Assembly: GCA_037305845.1 (NCBI GenBank)
Contig: CP147778.1
Coordinates: 2,272,001-2,336,000 of the forward strand
Source: Candidatus Freyarchaeum deiterrae
Lineage (GTDB): Archaea; Asgardarchaeota; Jordiarchaeia; Jordiarchaeales; Jordiarchaeaceae
Reading direction: 5' to 3'
DNA: 64,000 nucleotides
The notes under the pieces are model-generated. The model saw nothing but the letters and a program-made list of their open reading frames with translations, had not been told where the DNA came from and searched no databases. Position 1 is the stretch's first letter. Every line of letters begins with the position of its first letter. Shown in pieces: positions 181 through 15,491 of this stretch. Position numbers and translations under genes: made by a program.

Positions 181-1248
181 CTATCCGTATATACGGCTTA
201 TTTCTCTTTTTCTAGTCTCTATGAATTCGATAAATTCTTCTAGTGAGGGATCCTCCTCAGCCTCTTCAGAAACTAATTCCGCCATACTGATTAATGAAGC
301 TGCTACATGTGTACGAGCAGGCTCAGATTTTATTTCAGGCTTAATAAGCGATACTATTCTTTTTTCGAAGTCTTTTAACGTAAGAACCTTATCCACAAGT
401 AACATAAAAGATTCTGTTATTCCCTTCTCTAATTCCTGTTTCTCATCCAATACTCCATTCGCTGCAAGATTTTTAAGCGCGGGGCTCACAATATCCCTCC
501 TAAACCAATCAAAGAGTACACCCTTTTTACTGGAAGGTGGAAGAAAGCTTGAAACAGGGGAACTAATGGTTTTTGGTTCTTTCTTAGCGTATTCCGCCAC
601 TTTATTAGTATTTAAAGTTTTAATAGTTTCCATCGCAGCTAGTATTAGAGAGGTCACCCCTAAAACAACTTCTCTCCTACTGTAGTGTTCTAACATTTTT
701 TTAAGAGCCTGTGAAGTTTCTTCAAAAGAAACGCCCCCCGATATAAACGATTTAAAAAGCTCCAAAATCATACCTCTTGTCTCAAGAGCTTCACTAAAGC
801 TAACACTATCCAGAGTTAAAATTCGATACGCCGAGTCTAAAACCTGTTTATCAAACCATCTCACCACTATATACTCCTCTGTTAACCTCTTCAGATCTTC
901 TGGAACAAGTTTCTCCTCGGTATCTTCTAAAGCGCTACATAGTTGCGAGGCGAAGGTTTCAAAAACTGAAGATACGTAAGCACGTAGCGTTTCATCCAGT
1001 TTAAGCCTTGATAACATCTTATCGACGTTTTTTTGAAACTGGGATTTGGAACCTTTTCTTTCTAAGTAGTTTTTGAAATGTGGGAATATTTCATCCTTCA
1101 TTAGTTGGGATTCTTCAGGAGTCAGATTAGTTGTGATGTTGTCTAGAACACCGAAAACTACATAGTCAAAAAACTCTCTTAAAATTTTCAAATTTTTTTC
1201 CGAATCAAAAATGGCGACCATGGTTGGCTTCACCGGAGGGTCATTCAA
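181..1248 (-). CDS. Hypothetical helical protein (355 aa)
   Basis: Long ORF overlapping the ATPase stop (translational coupling). No family recognised. Confidence 0.75.
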   Translation of the reverse strand: MNDPPVKPTMVAIFDSEKNLKILREFFDYVVFGVLDNITTNLTPEESQLMKDEIFPHFKNYLERKGSKSQFQKNVDKMLSRLKLDETLRAYVSSVFETFASQLCSALEDTEEKLVPEDLKRLTEEYIVVRWFDKQVLDSAYRILTLDSVSFSEALETRGMILELFKSFISGGVSFEETSQALKKMLEHYSRREVVLGVTSLILAAMETIKTLNTNKVAEYAKKEPKTISSPVSSFLPPSSKKGVLFDWFRRDIVSPALKNLAANGVLDEKQELEKGITESFMLLVDKVLTLKDFEKRIVSLIKPEIKSEPARTHVAASLISMAELVSEEAEEDPSLEEFIEFIETRKREISRIYG

Positions 1249-4200
1249 TTAGTGATCTTTGCAGCTGCTCAATTTTTTCAATGGTTTTTCTTTTTAGAAA
1301 AATGTATTCGTCCTCAGCCATCCTGCCTAATTCATAGTATTCCTGCAAACTCTTTAGATATTTGTTGAATTTCTGTATCTCCTTAATGCTTTTTTCCTGT
1401 TCTATCTGCTTGTTAGTTTTCTCCTCTATCTCTGGTGTTTCCGTTTTCATAACCACTGGTGCTTCTAAAGGTTCCTGAAGTTCTGGTTCAATGTTTTCCT
1501 CGGCTTTAATACTGGGTCTGGGTGGTGGAGTGGGTAATTCCGGAAGTTTTTCAACCTTGGCTTTCTCTAGTAACTGTTTGGGTTTCGGCTTCGGATGCTT
1601 TCGGGGTGCTATTTTTAAATTATTAACTACGCTTTTTAGTGATGAAATTATACCTGTTGCTTCGCTCCTTTGAGCTGATGTAGATAAAATAAGAATTACT
1701 GTACTATCCTCGGTTTCTACAACTCCTAATGAAACCCGCGATTTGTCCTTGGAGCCTAAAATCACCGGTACACCCTTTGCAGCGTTTATTTGAGGTTGCC
1801 ATCCATCTTCCTTTAATTTGCTATAAACATCACGGATAACTTCAACGCTATCCGCTTGTGACAATATTTTTTCGACGGCGGTTTCCATTTTTGGGACTGG
1901 ATACAAATGATTGTAGAATCCATAGTCCAAAACCCGTTTTATGTAATTAGCGGCTAAATCGTTTGATAAACCGAGTACTGGTGGAGAAGGAATTGTTATA
2001 TCTGGGGCTATTTCAACCACTTCTTCTTCTACTACTACCCCCTCCGGAGACTCTGTGGCTTCTGTTTCGGATACTTTTTCTATTTTCTCAGTGGTCTCCT
2101 CAATTTTTTCCGGAGTAACGATAGATTTCGATGGAGTTGATGCAAGTTCCTCAACCATTTTGGGAAGCGCTTCCCGACCGGAATGCTGACTTAGTCTCGG
2201 CCTGATTTTAACCACGAGGGCACGGCTACTAGTGATTGATTCGTCTGAAACAATCGTGGTTCCAATTGGAATATTACGCAGAAATCCTGAGTCCTTTATC
2301 TCCTCAGGAATCTCTTTAGGTGATCTCTTTGTAAAAGCAATAATGTCTGGTTCATATGACAAATAATGTGTTATCAGTATATCTATTTGAGATAAAACTC
2401 GATTGTCTGTAGCTGAGGGTTGCTGGGTTACCAGTACCAAGCCACAACCCGGTTTTCTTCCGAGCTTGGTAAACTCGATTAGGGGATCAGAGGCTGCGGT
2501 GACCCCTCTGGAAGGAACGAGTAAGTGTGCTTCATCAATCATCAACCAGGTCACTGGAATCTCCGCTTCAACTTTCTCATTTGATGCTTCTCTCAGTTGG
2601 GCGGCTTCCTCTGTTCTTGAAATCTGTAACCTCACCCTGAGAATTCTTCGCGCCAGTATGCCAATAACTAGAGCACGCAAGCTATCATCTAGATTGCTTA
2701 CATCTATAACAGATATTTGATTTGGAACTGCCAATTGCATTAAGCTGGTTCCTTTATCTGAGAAAATTCCCCACTGTTTTGCCGAAGAGAATCTCGCAAC
2801 AAACGCTCTTCGTGTATCGCGTCTAAACCCTTTATCTTCGGATATAATCTCCGAAGAAGTTTCAACACATTTAATTAAATCATCTATAGTGTAGATGTCT
2901 CCCTTACCCGTAATGTTTAACTCTTGGTCATCGGTCATAGCCTTGTAGCCGTTTTTAACTTTTTCAATAACCTGTTCAGTTAAAAGGCCTAACGTGCTAA
3001 ATCTATCTATACTAAAGGTATGACACCAATCATCGGCCGATAGCTCCGAGGGCTTTAACGAGAAGGCGGCGTCTTTCGTTTGTTCTGGAACTCTATCATA
3101 GAAGCCTATAGGGACAAAAACCTTTACGTTACTAAAACCCTTAGTTGTGAGTTCCCATTTTTCAAGTGTTTCTAACTCTCTTTTATCCCAATTGGGGTAC
3201 TTCATGCTCCAAAATATTCCCATAGGGTCAACAATAATCGTCGCAATTCCTAATTCTGACTCCGCCAACTCTTCTGCGATAACACCCATAGTATAAGATT
3301 TTCCAGATCCTCTATGACCGCTTATAAATATGACATGGGGAGTCACTCCATCTAAGAGAACTTTACAACCAAGTAAGCCGTTATCTTCACTCCTTTTCTC
3401 TCCCACGCGGCCAATGTACATTGTTCCTTTACAGCCTAATTTAGTCTGGGTCACTTTGCTTCTTCCCAAAATAACCGATTCACCTAAACTATCCATAAGT
3501 ACACTAATTGGAGTATCCACTATTGTTGGTGATTCAACACTAGTACCTTTTTCAAAGTTTATTATACCTGCTTCACCATTAATGTAGGCTAGTGCTCGCC
3601 ACAAATCTTTCAAATTGTTCGGATCAGTTTGTTCGGCTATATGCTTTCTAAGATTAGGCTGTTTAGGGTATCTATCAGCATCAAAACCTGACAAGTCCCA
3701 TAATAGAAAATCAACAGTTTCTTTATTTGAGAACCCATTGTAGGGTTTTACTGCATTCAAAGCTTTTTCCAGGTATTCCATCCTATCGGTGGCCATGAGC
3801 AGAAGGAGAAATACCTCAACGCGTTTATCAACATCAATTAGGCTTACTAGTTCAACCATCTTGTCAAGAAGTTTATCATCCGCGTTGTATCTGTAACCTT
3901 CGTACAGAATTTTTATAATTTGGAAGTCTGGTGATTCCTGAGTCGAAGCGTATCTGACAGCGGAATCCAGAGATTTTTGAATCTCCCCCTTTTCGGTTTC
4001 TTTTAATATGGTTCGGAAGGCGTGAACGATTGAAGCAGCAGCTTCGTTGTCAATTTCGCCAGAGTCCGAAATCCAAGCTCCAGAATCTGACTGAATAGAA
4101 ACCAGTTGTCCAACGAGGCTGTCCACTTGTTCTAGAAAAGTTTTGTTTCCAGTAACCCTATTTGCGATAATATAACAGTTTAAAAGGTAGGCTTTTTCTC

Positions 4201-4282
4201 TGGTGGTGACTGGTTTCGCCAGAGAGACTTTCTGTAACATGTCCACTAGTGATGAACATAAAGGTCTTCCCCTACTTAACAA
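1241..4282 (-). CDS. HerA/FtsK-like (DUF87) P-loop ATPase with N-terminal helical domain and SHOCT/CdvA-like C-terminal tail
   Basis: Walker A GHRGSGKS, Walker B LMIDEAH, GRKPG arginine finger and VTQQPS motif. Tail LQEYYELGRMAEDEYIFLKRK. Confidence 0.85.
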   Translation of the reverse strand: MLSRGRPLCSSLVDMLQKVSLAKPVTTREKAYLLNCYIIANRVTGNKTFLEQVDSLVGQLVSIQSDSGAWISDSGEIDNEAAASIVHAFRTILKETEKGEIQKSLDSAVRYASTQESPDFQIIKILYEGYRYNADDKLLDKMVELVSLIDVDKRVEVFLLLLMATDRMEYLEKALNAVKPYNGFSNKETVDFLLWDLSGFDADRYPKQPNLRKHIAEQTDPNNLKDLWRALAYINGEAGIINFEKGTSVESPTIVDTPISVLMDSLGESVILGRSKVTQTKLGCKGTMYIGRVGEKRSEDNGLLGCKVLLDGVTPHVIFISGHRGSGKSYTMGVIAEELAESELGIATIIVDPMGIFWSMKYPNWDKRELETLEKWELTTKGFSNVKVFVPIGFYDRVPEQTKDAAFSLKPSELSADDWCHTFSIDRFSTLGLLTEQVIEKVKNGYKAMTDDQELNITGKGDIYTIDDLIKCVETSSEIISEDKGFRRDTRRAFVARFSSAKQWGIFSDKGTSLMQLAVPNQISVIDVSNLDDSLRALVIGILARRILRVRLQISRTEEAAQLREASNEKVEAEIPVTWLMIDEAHLLVPSRGVTAASDPLIEFTKLGRKPGCGLVLVTQQPSATDNRVLSQIDILITHYLSYEPDIIAFTKRSPKEIPEEIKDSGFLRNIPIGTTIVSDESITSSRALVVKIRPRLSQHSGREALPKMVEELASTPSKSIVTPEKIEETTEKIEKVSETEATESPEGVVVEEEVVEIAPDITIPSPPVLGLSNDLAANYIKRVLDYGFYNHLYPVPKMETAVEKILSQADSVEVIRDVYSKLKEDGWQPQINAAKGVPVILGSKDKSRVSLGVVETEDSTVILILSTSAQRSEATGIISSLKSVVNNLKIAPRKHPKPKPKQLLEKAKVEKLPELPTPPPRPSIKAEENIEPELQEPLEAPVVMKTETPEIEEKTNKQIEQEKSIKEIQKFNKYLKSLQEYYELGRMAEDEYIFLKRKTIEKIEQLQRSLIE

Positions 4283-4331
4283 GAGTGTTTCCCCACACCT
4301 TTTCTGTATTGAAATATGAAAAGAAGAAGCC

Positions 4332-4946
4332 TTAAAGTTCTTCTTTCAATTTCTTAATATCTTTTTCCAGTTCTTCAACTTTTCCGCTAGGTGCTGACGG
4401 GAGCTTTACTCCGGTTTCGACACTTATTTCTTGGTCGATCTCAGAGATAGTAGCTGCGACTTCTTGAGATGTGACTTCTGTGCTAACTGTCATCTTCTCC
4501 ATTCCAGCCTCAAGAACATCTTGACGAACGTCGAATTCTTGCATAATGCTGTCTATTTCCTCAGCGTTTTTAGCAATGTCTTCTGGGAGCTTGACAGCTT
4601 CTTCGAGTCCCTTAAGGGCTTCTCTTACACCCGATATTGTGCTGGCGACGTCAGCTACGGATTCGCTCTGACGGAGTCTAATTACCATACCCTGAATTTT
4701 GAGGCGATAAGAATCTGTTGCTAAAGCCCACTTATTGTACCTTATATAATGTTCGGCGTACATTTTGGCTCCTTCGGCGTTTCCTCTAAGCCTATATTTC
4801 TTAGCATCTTCTCTGTTTTTTCTGGCTTCTCTCTCCAGCTGTTTTTTCTGGTATTCAAGGCGGCGAGTGAAAACATCAAGTTTGTAAACCACTTCTTTTA
4901 TCTTCGGTCCTCCCTTAAGCCAACTTGAGAATTTTCTAAGCGCCAT
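4332..4946 (-). CDS. ESCRT-III (Snf7 family, Vps2/24/46 class, CHMP1-like)
   Basis: GNAEGAKMYAEHYIR resembles CHMP1 GNMEVARIHAENAIR. Basic N-half, acidic C-half, MIM2-like LPSAP and MIM1-like terminal helix. Start taken at ATG 4946. Confidence 0.85.
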   Translation of the reverse strand: MALRKFSSWLKGGPKIKEVVYKLDVFTRRLEYQKKQLEREARKNREDAKKYRLRGNAEGAKMYAEHYIRYNKWALATDSYRLKIQGMVIRLRQSESVADVASTISGVREALKGLEEAVKLPEDIAKNAEEIDSIMQEFDVRQDVLEAGMEKMTVSTEVTSQEVAATISEIDQEISVETGVKLPSAPSGKVEELEKDIKKLKEEL

Positions 4947-5078
4947 ACAAAACACCAATCCCTTTTTTGATATTTTTCTAATTCTTTATTTTACCTAATA
5001 GAAGATTCCAGATGGTAGCATATAATACTTTCTTAATGTGCATTCCTCTGTTTTAAAAAGCAGTGAAAATTAAGCCGT

Positions 5079-6819: not shown

Positions 6820-7129
6820 TTGCCGCAAAAACGTAAAAGTCGTGGAAGAGCCAAAGGAAGCGCTGGAAAGAAATCACTCGTCCAATGCTCCGGGTGTGGG
6901 GCCATGGTGCCTCGCGATGTCAATTTGCTCAATTGAGCAAGTACGCGATAAGGCTAAGCGTGTGACCCGATACACCACATTGGTTGATCCAATGATCGGT
7001 CGAGAATTAAGACAGCAGGGAGCATACATTCCAAGAACTAGAGAAATCAAGGTATACTGCATCAACTGTGCTGTTCACAGAAAATTGACTCGGGTAAGAC
7101 CAAAGGAAGATAGAAGAGACAGAAGATAA
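6820..7129 (+). CDS. rps26e: 30S ribosomal protein S26e, two exons (6820-6918 and 6950-7129), 92 aa after splicing
   Basis: TTG at 6820 gives MPQKRKSRGRAKGSAGKKSLVQCSGCGAMVPRD. The downstream frame gives KAKRVTRY...YCINCAVHRKLTRVRPKEDRR. Removing 31 nt restores the conserved PRDKA motif. Confidence 0.93.
6919..6949 (+). other. Putative 31-nt bulge-helix-bulge mRNA intron in rps26e
   Basis: GCCT-CGCG-[ATG]-stem-loop-CGCG-[ATA]-AGGC. Cutting after the 2nd nt of each bulge gives CCT CGC GAT AAG GCT. Confidence 0.88.
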
Positions 7130-7183
7130 ACAAGAAAATGTCGCTCTTAGGTAAAACCGGTTAACCCATTAAGGGGAGAGGCT

Positions 7184-8074
7184 TTGCTTAACCTAGTGGT
7201 TATTGGGCATATTGCAAAGGATACAATAATTCGAAATGGCTCCAAAACCTACTCGATTGGCGGGCCTCCTTTTTATGCTGGAATAGCTGCGAGAAAAATG
7301 GGGGGAAAAGTGGGTATAGTTTCTAAAATAGGCCGAGACTTGGATGACGCGTCTTTGTCCGTTTTTAAAGAAACGGGAATTCAAACATCTATAAAAAAAA
7401 CAAATGGTTTGACAACAAACTTCGAACTCGAGTACCTGCCTGAAGGCAGAAGATTAAAATTGAAAGAGAGATGCGAGCCTATCTTATTTGAAGACGTTCC
7501 CAAACACTTTTTACGAGCGGGCTCTCTACTCGTCAGCCCTATAGCAGGAGAAATTTCAACGGATTTTATGGAAAAAATCTCTCGAAAAACAGATTCCATA
7601 TTAGCCATTGACGCACAGGGCTTTGTTCGCAAGTTTGATGACCAAGGAAATGTGTATTTTGATGTTTGGAGGGAAGGCGAAGACATTCTTCCTCTTGTGG
7701 ATATTGCCAAATTTTCAAAACGTGAAGCACTAACCGCTATGGACTGCGATAGCATTCATGACGCTGCCCAAAAAATTTTGAATTTTGGCCCAGAAATCGT
7801 TATAATAACGCTTGGTGAGGAGGGAGTTCTGATAAGAGGAAAGGAAAACCTTTCCATCACTCCCAAGACTACCCCTGAAAAAGTAATAGACACTACCGGC
7901 GCAGGAGACATATTCTTCGGAGTATTTCTTCTTGAATATTCCCTGACAAAAAACGTAAAAACTTCTGGAAATATAGCGACCATCGCAGCCTCAAAATCTA
8001 CTGAGGGAAAGGGGATGTCACGGTTTATAACAAGAGATATGATTGAAAATGATTCATTCCAAAATGTAGACTAG
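7184..8074 (+). CDS. PfkB-family carbohydrate kinase
   Basis: GG motif near the N-terminus and DTTGAGDIF signature. Confidence 0.9.
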   Translation: MLNLVVIGHIAKDTIIRNGSKTYSIGGPPFYAGIAARKMGGKVGIVSKIGRDLDDASLSVFKETGIQTSIKKTNGLTTNFELEYLPEGRRLKLKERCEPILFEDVPKHFLRAGSLLVSPIAGEISTDFMEKISRKTDSILAIDAQGFVRKFDDQGNVYFDVWREGEDILPLVDIAKFSKREALTAMDCDSIHDAAQKILNFGPEIVIITLGEEGVLIRGKENLSITPKTTPEKVIDTTGAGDIFFGVFLLEYSLTKNVKTSGNIATIAASKSTEGKGMSRFITRDMIENDSFQNVD

Positions 8075-8173
8075 AATTTTAATAGAAAAAAATTAGGGGA
8101 CTCCTATTCAATAAATTCAAGGAAAGGTTAATCGAATAATAAATGATTTTTAATTGCTGCTTTAGATGAGTCC

Positions 8174-9301
8174 TTATTCTACGGGTTGTATCTTGCCTAA
8201 TATTCCAAAAGCGGGGCATCCTGGAATAAAGATTCCCTTATCCTTATGTTCCTGTGTGCAGTCTCCTATGATGTACGTTCTACCCTCTAGTTTTTCTGGT
8301 ACTTTTGCATCCTGCCCTATTACCATATTAATTTTTCCCACTTTTTCTATGAGTCCATGTTTTCTAAGCCTATCCAGCTCTACTCTGGCCCAAGCCAAGC
8401 AACCTTCATTACACGCGCATCCAACGTAAACCTCTACGTTCGGATAAATGCCCATTACATCCGTTGATGGTCTCTTAAAATTCCTCCGGACTTCACTAAT
8501 ACTCGCTCCTCTTACTTCTATTTTATTCAAGTCCATTTCTCCCAGTCTCCGAAGGGCAGCCAGTCTTATATGAGGAATTTCACCAGGCTCAAAGCCCATG
8601 ATACTTGACGCTACAGCATCTACAGATACCACATCTGTTCCCGCAATAACCAGACCCATATCCAATGCATCTCCGTAGGTAGGTCCCTGTCCCTCAAACG
8701 CGATTAGACCGTCAATTATTGCTAGGGCGGGTTTTGCCGCTAGCGTTACGTCCACAACCTTCTGGTGGATATCCGTCCTGTGATAAATCTGTTTTTCTTC
8801 AGGGGTTAATAGACCGATCTGATTTTTAATCGCTAAGCTGACTCTGCACATGGTATGAGTTTTTAATTTTGGCACTGTTATGAACTTGTTGCAATCCAGT
8901 AGAACTTTTGGGAGTTTAATGGTGTTCATTAATTTTGCCTTGGGGGACTCTATCTCTAGATATTCCTCCTCGTCCAAGTAAACAGCCTCAGCGCCCTCCT
9001 CTTCCACTACCGTTTGCGTTCCTGTAACTTCGAAAGCTTTTCTGGACTTGTAAAAGAAGAAGGGAGCATCTCCAACTTTTATCTGGCTAGCTCCCGCCTC
9101 TCTCACCAGTTGAATCACCGCCCTAACTACTTCTGGGTCAGTGGTTGCACCGGATTCTTTGGCAAGGGGAACAACCAGGTTTGGTTTTATGAAAACCTTG
9201 TCTCCTTTTCTCACAATTTTTTTGATTCCGCCTATGAGGTCTACCGCATTTCGAACAGCATCTGCTGCTGTTTCACTCTTTACAATTGACACTACTGGCA
9301 T
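8174..9301 (-). CDS. DUF362-family Fe-S protein
   Basis: IKPNLV, TTDPEVV, PKLKTH and EGQGP motifs, plus C-terminal Cys motifs. Confidence 0.85.
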   Translation of the reverse strand: MPVVSIVKSETAADAVRNAVDLIGGIKKIVRKGDKVFIKPNLVVPLAKESGATTDPEVVRAVIQLVREAGASQIKVGDAPFFFYKSRKAFEVTGTQTVVEEEGAEAVYLDEEEYLEIESPKAKLMNTIKLPKVLLDCNKFITVPKLKTHTMCRVSLAIKNQIGLLTPEEKQIYHRTDIHQKVVDVTLAAKPALAIIDGLIAFEGQGPTYGDALDMGLVIAGTDVVSVDAVASSIMGFEPGEIPHIRLAALRRLGEMDLNKIEVRGASISEVRRNFKRPSTDVMGIYPNVEVYVGCACNEGCLAWARVELDRLRKHGLIEKVGKINMVIGQDAKVPEKLEGRTYIIGDCTQEHKDKGIFIPGCPAFGILGKIQPVE

Positions 9302-9577
9302 GGAGTTTCCCTCTAATTGTAGCTAATATATTACAAAGGGAAAACACTTAAAAAAAATTCGGTAAAAAGTCCCATTATATAATCCATTTTAATGGCGATG
9401 GAAAATAAAAATTTATATTAAACCCCAATGATTTAACTCCAACAAAAAGAAAGAGCTTAACAAGCGCTCATCAAATATTTAATTTATCAATTCAAAGCCC
9501 ATTTAGTTTATGTTGAATACTCTAAGCAAAAGATGTATTTTAAGTTGCAAAACTACTGAGTTTTAGCTGGTGATTGA

Positions 9578-11032
9578 ATGGTTGAAGATACTGAAACTCC
9601 CTTACCCGACAAGGAACAAAACTTCAGTGAATGGTATAACGAAATCGTCCAGAGGGCGGAGCTAGTAGATCTTCGCTACGGAGTGAAAGGATTTATAGTT
9701 TATCGCCCTAATATTTCAACTATCTTGAGGCAAACTTATCGCCTTTTCGAGGAAGCTCTAGATGCATATGGTCATTCAGTTTGCAACTTTCCAGTAGTAA
9801 TACCCTTGGAATTCTTTCAAAAAGAAGCTGACCACATAAAAGGATTTTCGGGAGAAGTTTTTTGGATAACAAAGGCAGGCGGTAGTGACCTCGATAAACC
9901 TATGTTACTGAGACCAACTTCTGAGACCGCTATGTATCCCCTTTACGCCTACTGGGTTCGAAGCTATCGCGATTTACCTTTGAAATTATACCAAAGCAAC
10001 ACCGTCTACCGATATGAAACCAAGGCAACAAAAGCTCTCATTCGGGGCAGAGAATTCTACTGGATAGAAGCGCACGATGTTCATAGAACGCCTGAAAACG
10101 CAATAAACCAAGTAAAAGAGGATATGGAAATAACGATTAACTCCCTACACGATCAGCTTGGTATTCCCTTTCTATTGATGGAAAGGCCTCCATGGGATAG
10201 GTTTGCAGGAGCAGACCAAACTTACGCCTTTGACGTACTTCTTCCCGATAAGAATGTCCTACAAATTGCCACCACTCACCTCCTAGGTGAGAATTTCTCT
10301 AAAGCCTTCGAGATTATGTTTGAGGATGAGGATGGAGTCAAAAAGTATGGTCAACAGACATGCTTTGGAATAGGCATCTCAAGAATAGTAGCTACCATTA
10401 TCAGTATGCATGGCGACAATTACGGACTAGTACTACCATTTCACGTCGCTCCCCTCCAAATCATAATAGTACCAATACCCAAAAAGGGAAAGAATGAACT
10501 CATAACTGAGAAGTGTGAGGAAGTTTACCAAAGACTCAAAGATAAAGGTTATCGAGTAAAATTTGATAACTCAGATGAACGCCCCGGAGCCAAATTTTAT
10601 CACTGGGAACTACTGGGTGTACCATTAAGACTCGAAATAGGTCCTAAAGACATAGAGCAAGGTGCGATAACTATTTTTAGAAGAGATAAAAGGGAACGCT
10701 TTCTGACAAAAGAAAGCCAACTAGTAGAAACTATCGAACAGCTGAGGGATGATATCTTAAAAGAATTAAGAACCCATAGAGAAAAAGACTTGGAAGAGGA
10801 CACCCGAGAAGCCAAAAGTAAAGAGGAATTTCTAGAAATCGCGAAAAACAAAGGGGGCTTTATAAAGATAGAGTTCTGTGATAACGTTAAGTGCGCGGAA
10901 ATAATTAAAGAAGAAACCGGAGGATACGAGGTAAGAGGCAAACTCTTTGGAGAAAAAGAAAAACCAAAGGGTAAATGCATAATCTGCGGCGAAAAAGCAA
11001 AATCAATAGTTTACGCAGCCAAGCCTTATTAA
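9578..11032 (+). CDS. proS: Proline--tRNA ligase (archaeal/eukaryotic type)
   Basis: LRPTSETAMY and YRYETK..IRGREF motifs, C-terminal Zn domain ending AKPY. Confidence 0.97.
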   Translation: MVEDTETPLPDKEQNFSEWYNEIVQRAELVDLRYGVKGFIVYRPNISTILRQTYRLFEEALDAYGHSVCNFPVVIPLEFFQKEADHIKGFSGEVFWITKAGGSDLDKPMLLRPTSETAMYPLYAYWVRSYRDLPLKLYQSNTVYRYETKATKALIRGREFYWIEAHDVHRTPENAINQVKEDMEITINSLHDQLGIPFLLMERPPWDRFAGADQTYAFDVLLPDKNVLQIATTHLLGENFSKAFEIMFEDEDGVKKYGQQTCFGIGISRIVATIISMHGDNYGLVLPFHVAPLQIIIVPIPKKGKNELITEKCEEVYQRLKDKGYRVKFDNSDERPGAKFYHWELLGVPLRLEIGPKDIEQGAITIFRRDKRERFLTKESQLVETIEQLRDDILKELRTHREKDLEEDTREAKSKEEFLEIAKNKGGFIKIEFCDNVKCAEIIKEETGGYEVRGKLFGEKEKPKGKCIICGEKAKSIVYAAKPY

Positions 11033-11131
11033 AAACTATCTTCAAATAGAAATCCTTAAAAAAGATTATTCCCTTAGAAAGGTCTTCCCTATTTTCCATT
11101 TTGTAAATTACCTGAAAGTTTCCAAACAAGA

Positions 11132-12403
11132 GTGATTATGTTGAAAGATTTACAGATCCCTTACGGCAAAAAAGAAATCAGATTTAACCTACCAAACAAC
11201 TGGAATCTGCTAGGCGTTCTCTCACCAAAGATAACCAACAAGCAACTTGATCCTTACAAGGCGGTACTGAAAGCGGTGAGAAATCCAATAGGAACCGAAA
11301 GCCTGTATGATATAGCACACAGAAAAAGGAATGCAGTAATCCTCTCAGATGATAAAGCACGCCCTACCCCCTCAAACCTTATTATTCCTCCATTACTGGA
11401 CGAGTTAAATCGGGCTGGTATTCCCGATGGTAAAATTACTATTATCATAGGAAGGGGATTGCACGAATCTCTGAATGAAAAAGAACTTGAAAAGAAGCTA
11501 GGTGAGAATGTCTTAGAACGGGTTGCTGTCATTGATCATGAACCAGATAAAGATTTAATTAACGTTGGAAAAACTCCTCAAAACGTGCAGGTATTCATTA
11601 ATAAAAACGTTGTTGAGGCGGACCTAAAGATAGGTATAGGCAGCCTTACACCTCACGAATTATCTGGATTCACAGGAGGCGCAGGAATCGTTGTACCTGG
11701 CGTGGCTGGAAGGCGAACCATTAATCAAAACCATTCTCTTGTTAAAAGGTTCAAGGCAGAATTCGGAAAAATTGAAGGAAATCTCATACGCAAAGATATG
11801 GAAGACGCAGCCAAGTTGCTTGGATTAGACTTTTTGGTAAATGCTACTCTGGACGTTAACGATCAGATAGTAGATATATTTGCAGGAGATGTGGTTAAGG
11901 CTTCCCATGAAGCGGTTGAAAGTGCTAAGAACATTTACGGTGTGCACATCGATAAAAAGGCAGACGTAGTGATAGCCAGTTCTCATCCAAAAGATGATAC
12001 TTTCGGCAAATCAATGAAAGCCATTTTCGCTTCTTCACTGGCAGTCAAACCAGACGGCGTTATAATACATGTAGCGCCCTGCTGGGACGGGCTGTCGCAC
12101 AGTGAAATTTTCGAGAAAATGTTACTAGACAATCCTGGACTAGAAACATTATTCAAGATATTGGATAGAGGACAACTTCCTGGAGAAAGCTGTGTACTCT
12201 ACCTGTTTGCTTTAGTTAAAAATAAACTTAGAATCATAGTAGTTACCGACGGAATAGAAAAAGAGGTCGTAGAAAAAATGGGTTTAGAATACGCTGAAAA
12301 CATAGAAACCGCCTTAAAAAACACTGGAAAAGAAAAAGCGGATTGTACCGTGCTGCCCTGGGGCGCTGTCTCATTACCTATTCTAAATAATTCGAGTGAG
12401 TAA
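11132..12403 (+). CDS. Nickel-dependent lactate racemase (LarA) family protein
   Basis: SDDKARPTP, GRGLH and PHELSGFTGG motifs. Confidence 0.85.
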   Translation: MIMLKDLQIPYGKKEIRFNLPNNWNLLGVLSPKITNKQLDPYKAVLKAVRNPIGTESLYDIAHRKRNAVILSDDKARPTPSNLIIPPLLDELNRAGIPDGKITIIIGRGLHESLNEKELEKKLGENVLERVAVIDHEPDKDLINVGKTPQNVQVFINKNVVEADLKIGIGSLTPHELSGFTGGAGIVVPGVAGRRTINQNHSLVKRFKAEFGKIEGNLIRKDMEDAAKLLGLDFLVNATLDVNDQIVDIFAGDVVKASHEAVESAKNIYGVHIDKKADVVIASSHPKDDTFGKSMKAIFASSLAVKPDGVIIHVAPCWDGLSHSEIFEKMLLDNPGLETLFKILDRGQLPGESCVLYLFALVKNKLRIIVVTDGIEKEVVEKMGLEYAENIETALKNTGKEKADCTVLPWGAVSLPILNNSSE

Positions 12404-12598
12404 TGTCCATTTTACATGTTTCAAAACTTATTCTATTCCCCTTTTCCTATATTTTCTTTTAAATTTCATTGGTATTTTTTATTAATTTCGAAACAAAATC
12501 TAAGTTTTATTATCCATCTCTTTTAAAAGCAAATATGTAACACTAAAATTAGTGAAATAATAGAATGGATAATATTGCATAAAGTGGAGGCTTTGTAA

Positions 12599-13926
12599 TT
12601 GCGCTTTTTTTCGGACTTGCACATACATAGCAAGTATAGTAGGGCCACCAGTGATAAAATGGATATTGAGAATTTGATAAAGCATGCCAAGGTTAAGGGA
12701 CTAAACCTGCTAAGTTCTGGAGACCTATCTCATCCAAAATGGTTATCCGAGTTGAAAAACAAACTGATAGAGATCGAGGATTCGGGATTTTTCAGGGCTG
12801 AGGGCGAAAATGATGTTTTCTTTGTTCTTTGCACCGAAGTGTCAACTGTCTTTAGACATGAAGGAACTTCAAAGAAGATTCATCATCTTTTGTTTGCTCC
12901 TAATTTCGAAGTAGCTGATAAAATGAACGAATTTTTAGCGAAATTCGGGAATCTGAAAGCAGACGGTAGACCAATGTTGAATATTACCCCCGCAGAACTC
13001 GTTGAGAATCTTATAAATATTGATGAAAGAATATTAATCGTTCCTGCACATTTATGGACCAGTTGGTTTGGTGCATTAGGTGAAAATGGTTTCGACAGTT
13101 TAGAAGACTGTTACGAAGATCAGCTAAAGCACATCTACTCTGTGGAAACAGGTTTATCCTCTGACCCGGCTATGAACTGGAGACTGAGCAAATTGGACAA
13201 ATACGTTTTAATGAGTAACAGCGACGCTCACAGCCCATGGGATTGGAGGCTTGGTAGGGAAGCAAACGTTTACGAACTAAAATCTCCATCCTACCGAGAA
13301 TTAACCGAGGCTATAAAAACAAAAGACAGGGAAAAAATTCTTATGACCATCGAAGTTGACCCCGCCTATGGAAACTAATTCGAAGTGAGTCCGAGTTAGC
13401 CATAAAATATCACTTCGATGGTCACCGCGCAGATAAACATCAAAGCGGTACGGACGTATACATGTCTCCAAAAGAGGCTATTAAAATAAGTAACATTTGT
13501 CCAATCTGTAGAAAGAAAATGACTATCGGAGTGCTACACAGAGTAGAAGAATTAGCTGATCGAGATGAAAATTATTTACCCAAAAATTATGTACCCTTCA
13601 AAAGATTAATTCCTTTGACAGAACTCATTGCGGCTGCTATGAGGATTGATGACTTGTACTCTAAGCAGATTTGGGAGATGTACTACCGACTTGTGAATTC
13701 TTTCGGTAACGAGTACAATATTTTAATTAATGTTCCCAAACCCGATATTGAGGCGGTGGTGGATCAGAAAATTGCTGATTTAATTATCAATAACCGAGAA
13801 GGAAGACTAAAGATTAGACCAGGTTTCGATGGGGTGTATGGAAAAGTTGTTTTAGACGAAAAAGAAGCTAAAGGTAAAGGCTTTAAACAGCTGGAGCAGA
13901 AAAGTCTGGATGGATATTTTAAATAA
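12599..13926 (+). CDS. EndoQ/TIGR00375-family PHP-domain endonuclease, two exons (12599-13373 and 13406-13926), 431 aa after splicing
   Basis: DLHIHSKYSRATS, ETGLSSD and NSDAHS motifs. The joined sequence reads EVDPAYGKYHFDGHR...CPICRKKMTIGVLHRVEELADR...PGFDGVYG. Confidence 0.9.
13374..13405 (+). other. Putative 32-nt bulge-helix-bulge mRNA intron in the EndoQ-family gene
   Basis: ATGG-[AAA]-CTAATTCG-loop-CGAGTTAG-CCAT-[AAA]. Canonical cuts give TAT GGA AAA TAT CAC (YGKYH). A 13-bp perfect exon-exon stem pairs 13344-13356 with 13412-13424. Confidence 0.88.
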
Positions 13927-14795: not shown

Positions 14796-15491
14796 CTATT
14801 CCTCCGAAGCAAACAGCTTCTTTAATCTACCAAGCTCTGTCATCATCGCATTCCTAAGATCCGTAATAGAGCCCGCATCCTGTTGAACCGCAGCTCCTAT
14901 CGCAGCCGAAGCGGCTACACCAGGTGCACCCATACTCGGCGGTCCACCTACTGCTGGTGTTCTACCCGCTACCGGCGGCATACCTGCTGGTGGTCTGCCT
15001 CCCGCTGATGGCGGTCCACCTATACTTGGCGGTGCGCCTGCTGATGGCGGCATACCTGCTGGTGGTCTGCCTCCCGCTGATGGCGGTGCGCCTGCTGATG
15101 GCGGCATACCTGCTGGTGGTCTGCCTCCCGCTGATGGGGGCATACCTGCCGCAGTTGCTGGTTGAGTGCCGGTTTTGGTAGAGAACATACCAAATACATC
15201 ATCTGGTGCGGTTCTACTACTTAATGATTCTAGTGGGACGGATGATGATGACGATACTATTGTTTCCTGCGTTCCCATTGCTGTAGATTGAGGCATAGCA
15301 AGTTCGGAAGCTCCGAGGTCGACCTCCATTCCTTTCGCCGCTTTTGCGAGGTCTTTTTGTAGACTTTCTACCGATTTAGAGTAGGCTTCTTGTGCTTTCT
15401 TTAGGGATTCGATATACTTATTAGAAAAACTGAGCAGGGAGGAACAAGCCTTTTGAACGAACCGTAATAGTTTCTCTTCTTTCTTGGGCAA
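14796..15491 (-). CDS. Hypothetical protein: coiled coil, Pro/Gly-rich repeats and C-terminal helix with LKK
   Basis: 231-aa ORF with a GAGG SD-like site. Repeats AGMPPS/AGGRPP/AGAPPS. Confidence 0.75.
   Translation of the reverse strand: MPKKEEKLLRFVQKACSSLLSFSNKYIESLKKAQEAYSKSVESLQKDLAKAAKGMEVDLGASELAMPQSTAMGTQETIVSSSSSVPLESLSSRTAPDDVFGMFSTKTGTQPATAAGMPPSAGGRPPAGMPPSAGAPPSAGGRPPAGMPPSAGAPPSIGGPPSAGGRPPAGMPPVAGRTPAVGGPPSMGAPGVAASAAIGAAVQQDAGSITDLRNAMMTELGRLKKLFASEE
14974..15137. repeat. Coding tandem repeat with an 18-bp basic unit
   Basis: Exact 38-mer GGCGGCATACCTGCTGGTGGTCTGCCTCCCGCTGATGG at 14974, 15046 and 15100. Confidence 0.9.

What the first reader, a model, noticed from the sequence alone, without database searches (positions are those of the whole stretch)
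6820..13926. mRNA splicing system: two protein-coding genes within 7 kb carry bulge-helix-bulge mini-introns
Seen: rps26e (31 nt) and the EndoQ-family gene (32 nt) are each broken inside a conserved motif by an insert that shifts the frame and contains an in-frame stop. The two inserts are unrelated in sequence but share one geometry: a 4-bp central helix, two 3-nt bulges and an inner hairpin. In both, cutting after the 2nd nucleotide of each bulge regenerates the exact conserved codons. Established: this is the substrate rule of the archaeal tRNA splicing endonuclease EndA (ligation by RtcB), and the well-known archaeal mRNA example is the cbf5 intron of some Crenarchaeota. Inference: this probable Asgard lineage splices mRNAs of multiple genes, including a ribosomal protein, so many apparent frameshifted pseudogenes in the genome may be intron-containing genes. 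This bears on the origin of eukaryotic introns and IRE1/RtcB-type splicing.
Basis: partly seen in the sequence, partly recalled or inferred. Interest (0 to 1): 0.96.

Follow-up and report, generated by a model that had tools for sequence, protein, structure and literature searches.

The report
tRNA-type introns across Asgard protein genes
In this Asgard archaeon, at least 22 ordinary protein genes, several of them essential and single-copy, are interrupted by tiny hairpin introns of the kind cells cut out of tRNAs. Its messenger RNAs therefore very probably have to be cut and rejoined routinely, something published for only one archaeal coding sequence.

Summary
Confirmed, and larger than reported. 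The genome is the complete Freyarchaeia (Jordarchaeales) genome of Valentin-Alvarado 2024. Both inserts (rps26e 6919-6949; EndoQ 13374-13405) are relaxed bulge-helix-bulge (BHB) introns. Both recur in independent assemblies and interrupt the only gene copy, with both exons under purifying selection. The EndoQ intron sits at one site in all 11 genomes of the order searched, at lengths covering all three frames, with a compensatory exon-intron pair change. The rps26e intron is unique among 98 homologues. I count 25 such introns in 22 genes, including cbf5 (the crenarchaeal site), rtcB, tyrS, gatE and ahcY (three). The genome encodes a crenarchaeal-type (alpha-beta)2 EndA with the broad-specificity loop. 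For alba, two related species have contigs lacking exactly the intron; one is otherwise identical over 13 kb, and the junctions agree only at the BHB cut. The link to eukaryotic intron origin is unsupported. This scan noted the same phenomenon earlier in this and other genomes.

The parts
6820..6918 (+). rps26e exon 1 (TTG start, 33 codons, ends VPRD)
6919..6949 (+). 31-nt BHB intron of rps26e; in-frame TGA 6934-6936; inner hairpin 6923-6930/6935-6942; specific to this genome among those searched
6909..6954 (+). BHB motif: outer helix 6909-6912/6951-6954, central helix 6913-6916/6944-6947, bulges 6917-6919 and 6948-6950
   Evidence: sequence
6950..7129 (+). rps26e exon 2 (KAKRV to stop)
12599..13373 (+). 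EndoQ/TIGR00375 gene exon 1 (PHP domain; matches PfuEndoQ 5-242)
13374..13405 (+). 32-nt BHB intron splitting the Lys codon of YGKYH; in-frame TAA 13376-13378; present in all 11 genomes of the order searched
13367..13407 (+). BHB motif: central helix 13368-13371/13400-13403, bulges 13372-13374 and 13404-13406, inner stem 13375-13382/13392-13399, one closing pair 13367/13407
   Evidence: sequence
13406..13926 (+). EndoQ gene exon 2 (zinc-finger and C-terminal domains; matches PfuEndoQ 259-390)

Best explanation
Both inserts are real pre-mRNA introns. The transcript folds a relaxed bulge-helix-bulge at the exon-intron borders. The cell's (alpha-beta)2 tRNA splicing endonuclease cuts after the second base of each bulge, and RtcB joins the exons, which restores the frame. 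They are two of at least 25 such introns in 22 protein genes of this genome, gained at different times (order-wide, genus-wide, species-level), in a lineage whose tRNA genes are already 92-95% intron-bearing. Shown: the structure, frame restoration, conservation, the enzyme genes, and an intron-less alba form at the predicted junction in relatives. Inferred: that EndA and RtcB do the work, and that these two particular mRNAs are spliced. Likely reason for the bias to conserved motifs (inference): there the exon half of the helix does not drift, and only a precise loss is survivable.
For: Only copies, both split. Both exons under purifying selection, pN/pS about 0.15-0.3 (short rps26e exon 1 up to 0.6). 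EndoQ intron at the same site in 11/11 genomes of the order at 24, 28, 29 and 32 nt, and absent at that site in 19 other Asgard loci. 91% of cells paired, 0/500 shuffles, a U-A to C-G change between a Tyr third position and the intron. Homology-first scans against three relatives: 13 of 27 frame-breaking inserts of 20 nt or more pass the strict test, about 0.1 expected. cbf5 intron inside the catalytic Asp codon, as in Crenarchaeota. rtcB, tyrS and gatE interrupted genus- or order-wide. EndA alpha has the Tyr/His/Lys triad and a Lys aligned to K44 of the A. pernix loop; beta lacks the His. Lengths and 3' AA ends match the genome's tRNA introns. alba: L358 vs L360 have 13,185 aligned columns, 0 mismatches and one 30-nt gap; a second species shows the same gap; the equivalent-placement windows (-2..0 and 0..+2) meet only at the BHB cut.
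Against: The runs with intron-less alba are of unknown type, and one contig spans genes on both strands, as DNA would. Both window motifs are relaxed, and rtcB, ychF and FBPase have only 3 of 4 central pairs. The central-helix covariation alone rests on one change (13/500 shuffles), and the genomes are kin.
Confidence: 0.92

Rival explanations
1. The inserts are not removed from RNA. Intron-less alleles arise or coexist at DNA level (precise excision or loss), and the split copies are a silent or minority state.
For: The intron-less alba contig L358 is 13 kb with genes on both strands, and L344 extends 365 nt upstream of the start codon. Precise loss probably occurs over time (ahcY intron 2 in G009 but not G006, G007, G008, G010).
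Against: It would need the same precise loss in two species in one run, with zero other differences over 13 kb in one of them. No RVT_1 reverse transcriptase or LAGLIDADG_3 match in this genome. Every assembly of this strain carries the split essential genes.
Confidence: 0.04
2. Translational recoding (frameshift, readthrough, or T4 gene 60-like ribosome hopping over a hairpin) makes the proteins without splicing.
For: The rps26e insert is flanked by a 6-nt direct repeat, giving matched GAT codons, a hairpin and a stop.
Against: Orthologous EndoQ inserts fall in all three length classes modulo 3. Most introns split a codon (18 of 23 scored). The exon-intron helix is conserved. Recoding cannot produce intron-less contigs.
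Confidence: 0.02
3. Pseudogenes broken by tiny insertion elements, or assembly errors.
For: Target-site-like 6-nt repeats flank 3 of 24 inserts.
Against: The inserts are single-copy and unrelated to each other. They are present in seven independent runs. There is no intact second copy of rps26e, EndoQ, rtcB or tyrS. Purifying selection acts on the downstream exons.
Confidence: 0.02

Closest known systems
cbf5 pre-mRNA intron of Desulfurococcales and Sulfolobales (Watanabe 2002; Yoshinari 2006; Yokobori 2009, PMC2738675)
   Same: Short ORF-less BHB intron in a coding sequence, relaxed motif, (alpha-beta)2 EndA. This genome's own cbf5 has an intron at the same position, between the first and second base of the catalytic Asp codon.
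   Different: One gene there; at least 22 genes here, including a ribosomal protein, a tRNA synthetase and the ligase RtcB itself, with up to three introns per gene and different gene sets per lineage. Splicing was shown by cDNA there, not here.
Non-canonical tRNA introns of Freyarchaeia and Atabeyarchaeia (PMC11291895; preprint 10.64898/2026.10.13.758758)
   Same: Same genomes, similar size (median 28 vs 31 nt), same 3' AA bias, repeated independent gains.
   Different: Those papers treat tRNA genes only; the preprint has no occurrence of 'mRNA' or 'cbf5'. No mRNA intron here is a copy of a tRNA intron (longest shared word 11 nt).
BHB intron in the 5' UTR of Haloferax HVO_1309 (PMC7714728)
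   Same: EndA acts on an mRNA.
   Different: Outside the coding sequence, one gene. That paper states cbf5 was the only other case.
HAC1/XBP1 unconventional splicing in eukaryotes (own knowledge)
   Same: Protein nuclease plus tRNA ligase remove a short intron and restore a frame.
   Different: The nuclease is IRE1, the substrate is two stem-loops, and the event is stress-regulated and concerns a single target. No homology of substrates was shown or tested.

Membership tests
Archaeal BHB (EndA-type) intron | 4-bp central helix formed between exon and intron | tested here: met
   CGCG/CGCG and AUGG/CCAU; conserved with a compensatory change
Archaeal BHB (EndA-type) intron | Two 3-nt bulges on opposite strands with flanking helices (strict or relaxed) | tested here: met
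   Met as relaxed forms: one flanking helix is a single pair in each
Archaeal BHB (EndA-type) intron | Cut after the second bulge base restores the product | tested here: met
   the placement is one of 7 and 4 equivalents; pinned exactly only for alba
Archaeal BHB (EndA-type) intron | Host encodes a broad-specificity EndA and RtcB | tested here: met
Archaeal BHB (EndA-type) intron | Spliced RNA in vivo | tested here: inconclusive
Archaeal BHB (EndA-type) intron | Cleavage by EndA in vitro | not testable with these tools
   Needs bench work
cbf5 intron family | Located in the catalytic Asp codon of cbf5 | tested here: not met
   The window introns are in other genes; the genome's separate cbf5 intron does meet it
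Homing-endonuclease-coding archaeal introns | Internal LAGLIDADG ORF | tested here: not met
   31-32 nt; the 191-nt ahcY intron holds no such ORF; no PF14528 match in the genome (other LAGLIDADG families not searched)
Group I/II self-splicing introns | Ribozyme core | tested here: not met
   Too short; no Rfam match in the window
MITE / insertion sequence | Multiple copies and target-site duplication | tested here: not met
   Single-copy; a 6-nt repeat in only 3 of 24
Ribosome bypassing (T4 gene 60 type) | Matched take-off and landing codons | tested here: not met
   Matched for rps26e only; the EndoQ intron and most others split a codon
IRE1-type unconventional intron | IRE1 nuclease and dual stem-loop substrate | not tested
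   No search for IRE1 was made; the substrates fold as BHB

The most novel reading that the evidence does not exclude
Jordarchaeales and some other Asgard classes run routine, genome-wide mRNA splicing with the tRNA machinery. Because rtcB itself, cbf5, tyrS, gatE, kae1 and a ribosomal protein depend on it, EndA/RtcB activity acts as a regulatory gate, with a feedback loop on the ligase, rather than the introns being tolerated passengers.
Probability: 0.3. Interest if true: 0.93.

Novelty: new variant of a known kind. Interest (0 to 1): 0.82.

Why it matters
In the papers I could search, archaeal coding-sequence splicing is documented for one gene, cbf5. Here one genome has at least 25 such introns, and relatives have their own sets, so intron-split protein genes are a normal part of genome organisation in a prokaryotic lineage related to eukaryotes. 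It makes directly testable how introns arise, spread and persist without a spliceosome, since gains of different ages can be compared. It also has a practical cost. Public databases hold these genes as fragments (EndoQ 259 aa, AHCY 207 aa, Alba 78 aa). One gene caller bridged an intron by reading TAG as Gln. Gene-loss, metabolism and genetic-code claims for these archaea may therefore be wrong.

Tried and rejected
A loose de novo BHB-plus-ORF scan gave over 10,000 hits and was useless without energy and homology filters. No near-identical full-length rps26e or EndoQ protein was found; the 95-aa cluster member was a mis-called read through the intron. Further cluster look-ups found no spliced AHCY, cbf5 or EndoQ. 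The run accessions were not found in papers. Copying from tRNA introns was not supported. A palindrome or direct-repeat origin fits only 3 of 24 and is left as an idea. About eight of the 27 homology events lacked any hairpin and looked like antisense or gene-overlap alignment artefacts (judged by eye). Four de novo candidates (1164949, 339094, 1958627, 735531) were not accepted. One search was a mistyped alignment and (bacterial promoter scan) was uninformative.
Full report
Identity. The window is C1:2,272,001-2,336,000 of a single 3,576,204-nt contig. That length is listed for SRVP_Freyarchaeota_curatedFINAL in the supplement of PMC11291895, and its tRNA coordinates match mine. The paper reports introns in 92-95% of tRNA genes, often at non-canonical sites. 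I found no mention of mRNA introns in it.

Observation. Removing 6919-6949 gives a complete S26e, and removing 13374-13405 gives a complete TIGR00375/EndoQ protein. Both fold as relaxed BHB motifs with the MFE or within 1.5 kcal/mol of it. Short repeats make 7 and 4 placements equivalent, so frame restoration alone does not fix the cut sites. A random same-length excision passes my test (four central pairs, constrained fold within 5 kcal/mol of the MFE and at or below -8) at 3.3e-4. The unspliced forms occur in Logan contigs from seven other runs, which rules out an assembly error.

Not pseudogenes. Each gene has one copy, the split one. Against relatives, pN is well below pS on both sides of each insert.

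Comparative test. rps26e is intron-less in 36 related genomes and 62 metagenome loci, so that intron is a recent gain. The EndoQ gene is split at the same base in all 11 genomes of the order, with inserts of 24, 28, 29 and 32 nt. The loops diverge while the stems are kept: 91% of cells pair, and none of 500 shuffles reaches that. The third base of the Tyr codon changes together with its partner in the intron. Kinship inflates these counts, and the central helix alone rests on that one change. Three Atabeyarchaeia-type genomes carry an independent intron in the same gene at GTGD|FT.

Genome-wide. De novo and homology-first scans, plus leads from earlier notes that I checked, give 25 introns of 25-191 nt in 22 genes: rps26e, EndoQ, cbf5, rtcB, ahcY (3), tyrS, gatE, kae1, ychF, pcm, alba, moaE, porA, leuC, nadE, mvhD, a RuBisCO-like gene (2), an HD protein, a ferredoxin, a radical SAM gene, FBP aldolase/phosphatase and one unnamed gene. 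Twenty-two rest on alignment or family splits. The ferredoxin, radical SAM and FBPase cases rest on fold, frame and my recall of the motif, and several gene names are also from recalled motifs. Among 27 frame-breaking inserts found by homology without using the motif, 13 pass the strict test, against about 0.1 expected. The count is a lower bound. Ages differ: pcm, gatE and cbf5 are broken order-wide (cbf5 inserts read out in five genus members); rtcB, tyrS and ahcY-2 are genus-wide. The cbf5 intron also occurs in other Asgard families and lies at the crenarchaeal position. G006, G021 and G003 have introns that this genome lacks, for example in rpl44e and aIF5B. All eight sites with deep alignments fall in the 77th-100th percentile of conservation.

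Machinery. The genome has two EndA genes and one rtcB. The alpha subunit is closest to A. pernix EndA (E 7e-43), with the catalytic triad and a Lys aligned to K44 of the loop that confers activity on relaxed motifs. The second subunit lacks the His. rtcB itself carries an intron just after a conserved Asp codon: a perfect BHB in four relatives and 3 of 4 central pairs here.

Nearest thing to a spliced product. A search with alba exon 2 returned full-length forms. In one related species, contig L358 (run SRR28530378) and L360 (SRR28530383) align over 13,185 columns with no mismatch and one 30-nt gap, which is the intron. L359 (SRR28530379) also lacks it and L361 (SRR28530382) has it. In a second species, L344 (SRR28530378) lacks it while SRR28530379 and SRR28530381 keep it. 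The equivalent-placement windows of the two species overlap only at the BHB-predicted cut. The simplest reading is paired RNA and DNA libraries, with abundant spliced alba mRNA winning the assembly. I could not verify the library types, and L358 looks like DNA in span, so this is strong support and not proof.

Mechanism and limits. Shown: anatomy, conservation, enzyme genes and an intron-less form at the predicted junction. Inferred from the cbf5 precedent: EndA cleavage and RtcB ligation. Open: how the introns arrive (no copying from tRNA introns, no homing ORF, no RVT_1 match) and whether they regulate anything.

Prior knowledge. PMC7714728 names cbf5 as the only earlier mRNA case and adds a 5' UTR intron. 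PMC2738675 says introns in other genes were predicted but unconfirmed. A 2026 preprint covers Asgard tRNA introns only. My searches found no paper on Asgard mRNA introns, but the library is incomplete. Earlier AI notes of this scan report the same phenomenon in this genome and many others; they are not independent evidence.

Verdict. A real, multi-gene mRNA intron system of a known chemistry at an unpublished scale: a new variant of a known kind, interest 0.82. The claim about the origin of eukaryotic introns is not supported.

Noticed in passing
window 13350-13356, 13380-13388, 13410-13418: The EndoQ intron repeats 7 nt of exon 1 and is complementary over 9 nt to exon 2, giving a competing fold that hides the BHB with short flanks. 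A possible switch, and specific to this genome.
   Followed up: partly
L282 and L319 (genome G009): The EndoQ and ahcY introns of G009 share a 13-nt hairpin, and its four family relatives lack the ahcY intron: a possible copy between genes, though chance is not excluded.
   Followed up: no
rtcB of G000; EndoQ introns of G006, G007, G008, G010: The same G-A mismatch recurs at the central-helix position next to the 5' bulge, suggesting a tolerated relaxed motif.
   Followed up: partly
G000 C1:987,065-2,636,190: All 25 introns lie in under half of the chromosome, overlapping the region that holds the tRNA genes; partly detection bias.
   Followed up: no
G000 C1:1,876,393-1,876,203 (L324): A 191-nt single-copy intron in ahcY folds into one long hairpin with no clear ORF; G021 has a 31-nt insert at or next to the same motif.
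   Followed up: partly
P0007, P0020, P0068, P0100, P0106, P0110: EndoQ homologues elsewhere carry inteins at two other conserved motifs (PAH and SDAH), so this gene is a repeated target of intervening sequences.
   Followed up: partly
G020, G057, G049 cbf5; G013, G034 rtcB: cbf5 is broken at a different position in one family (59-62-aa frames; 902 aa in G049), and rtcB has frames of about 1,000 aa in two genomes, probably inteins.
   Followed up: no
G006, G008, G010 gatE; G016 pcm: An extra break near the start of gatE in three genomes, and a split pcm in a family outside the order.
   Followed up: no
L345, L346: Gene callers bridged the alba intron by reading TAG as Gln, a false sign of a changed genetic code.
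   Followed up: yes
window 1241-4958 (-) and 14796-15491 (-): A HerA-like ATPase next to an ESCRT-III/Snf7-like gene, and a protein with Pro/Gly-rich repeats (read from the translations, not searched).
   Followed up: no
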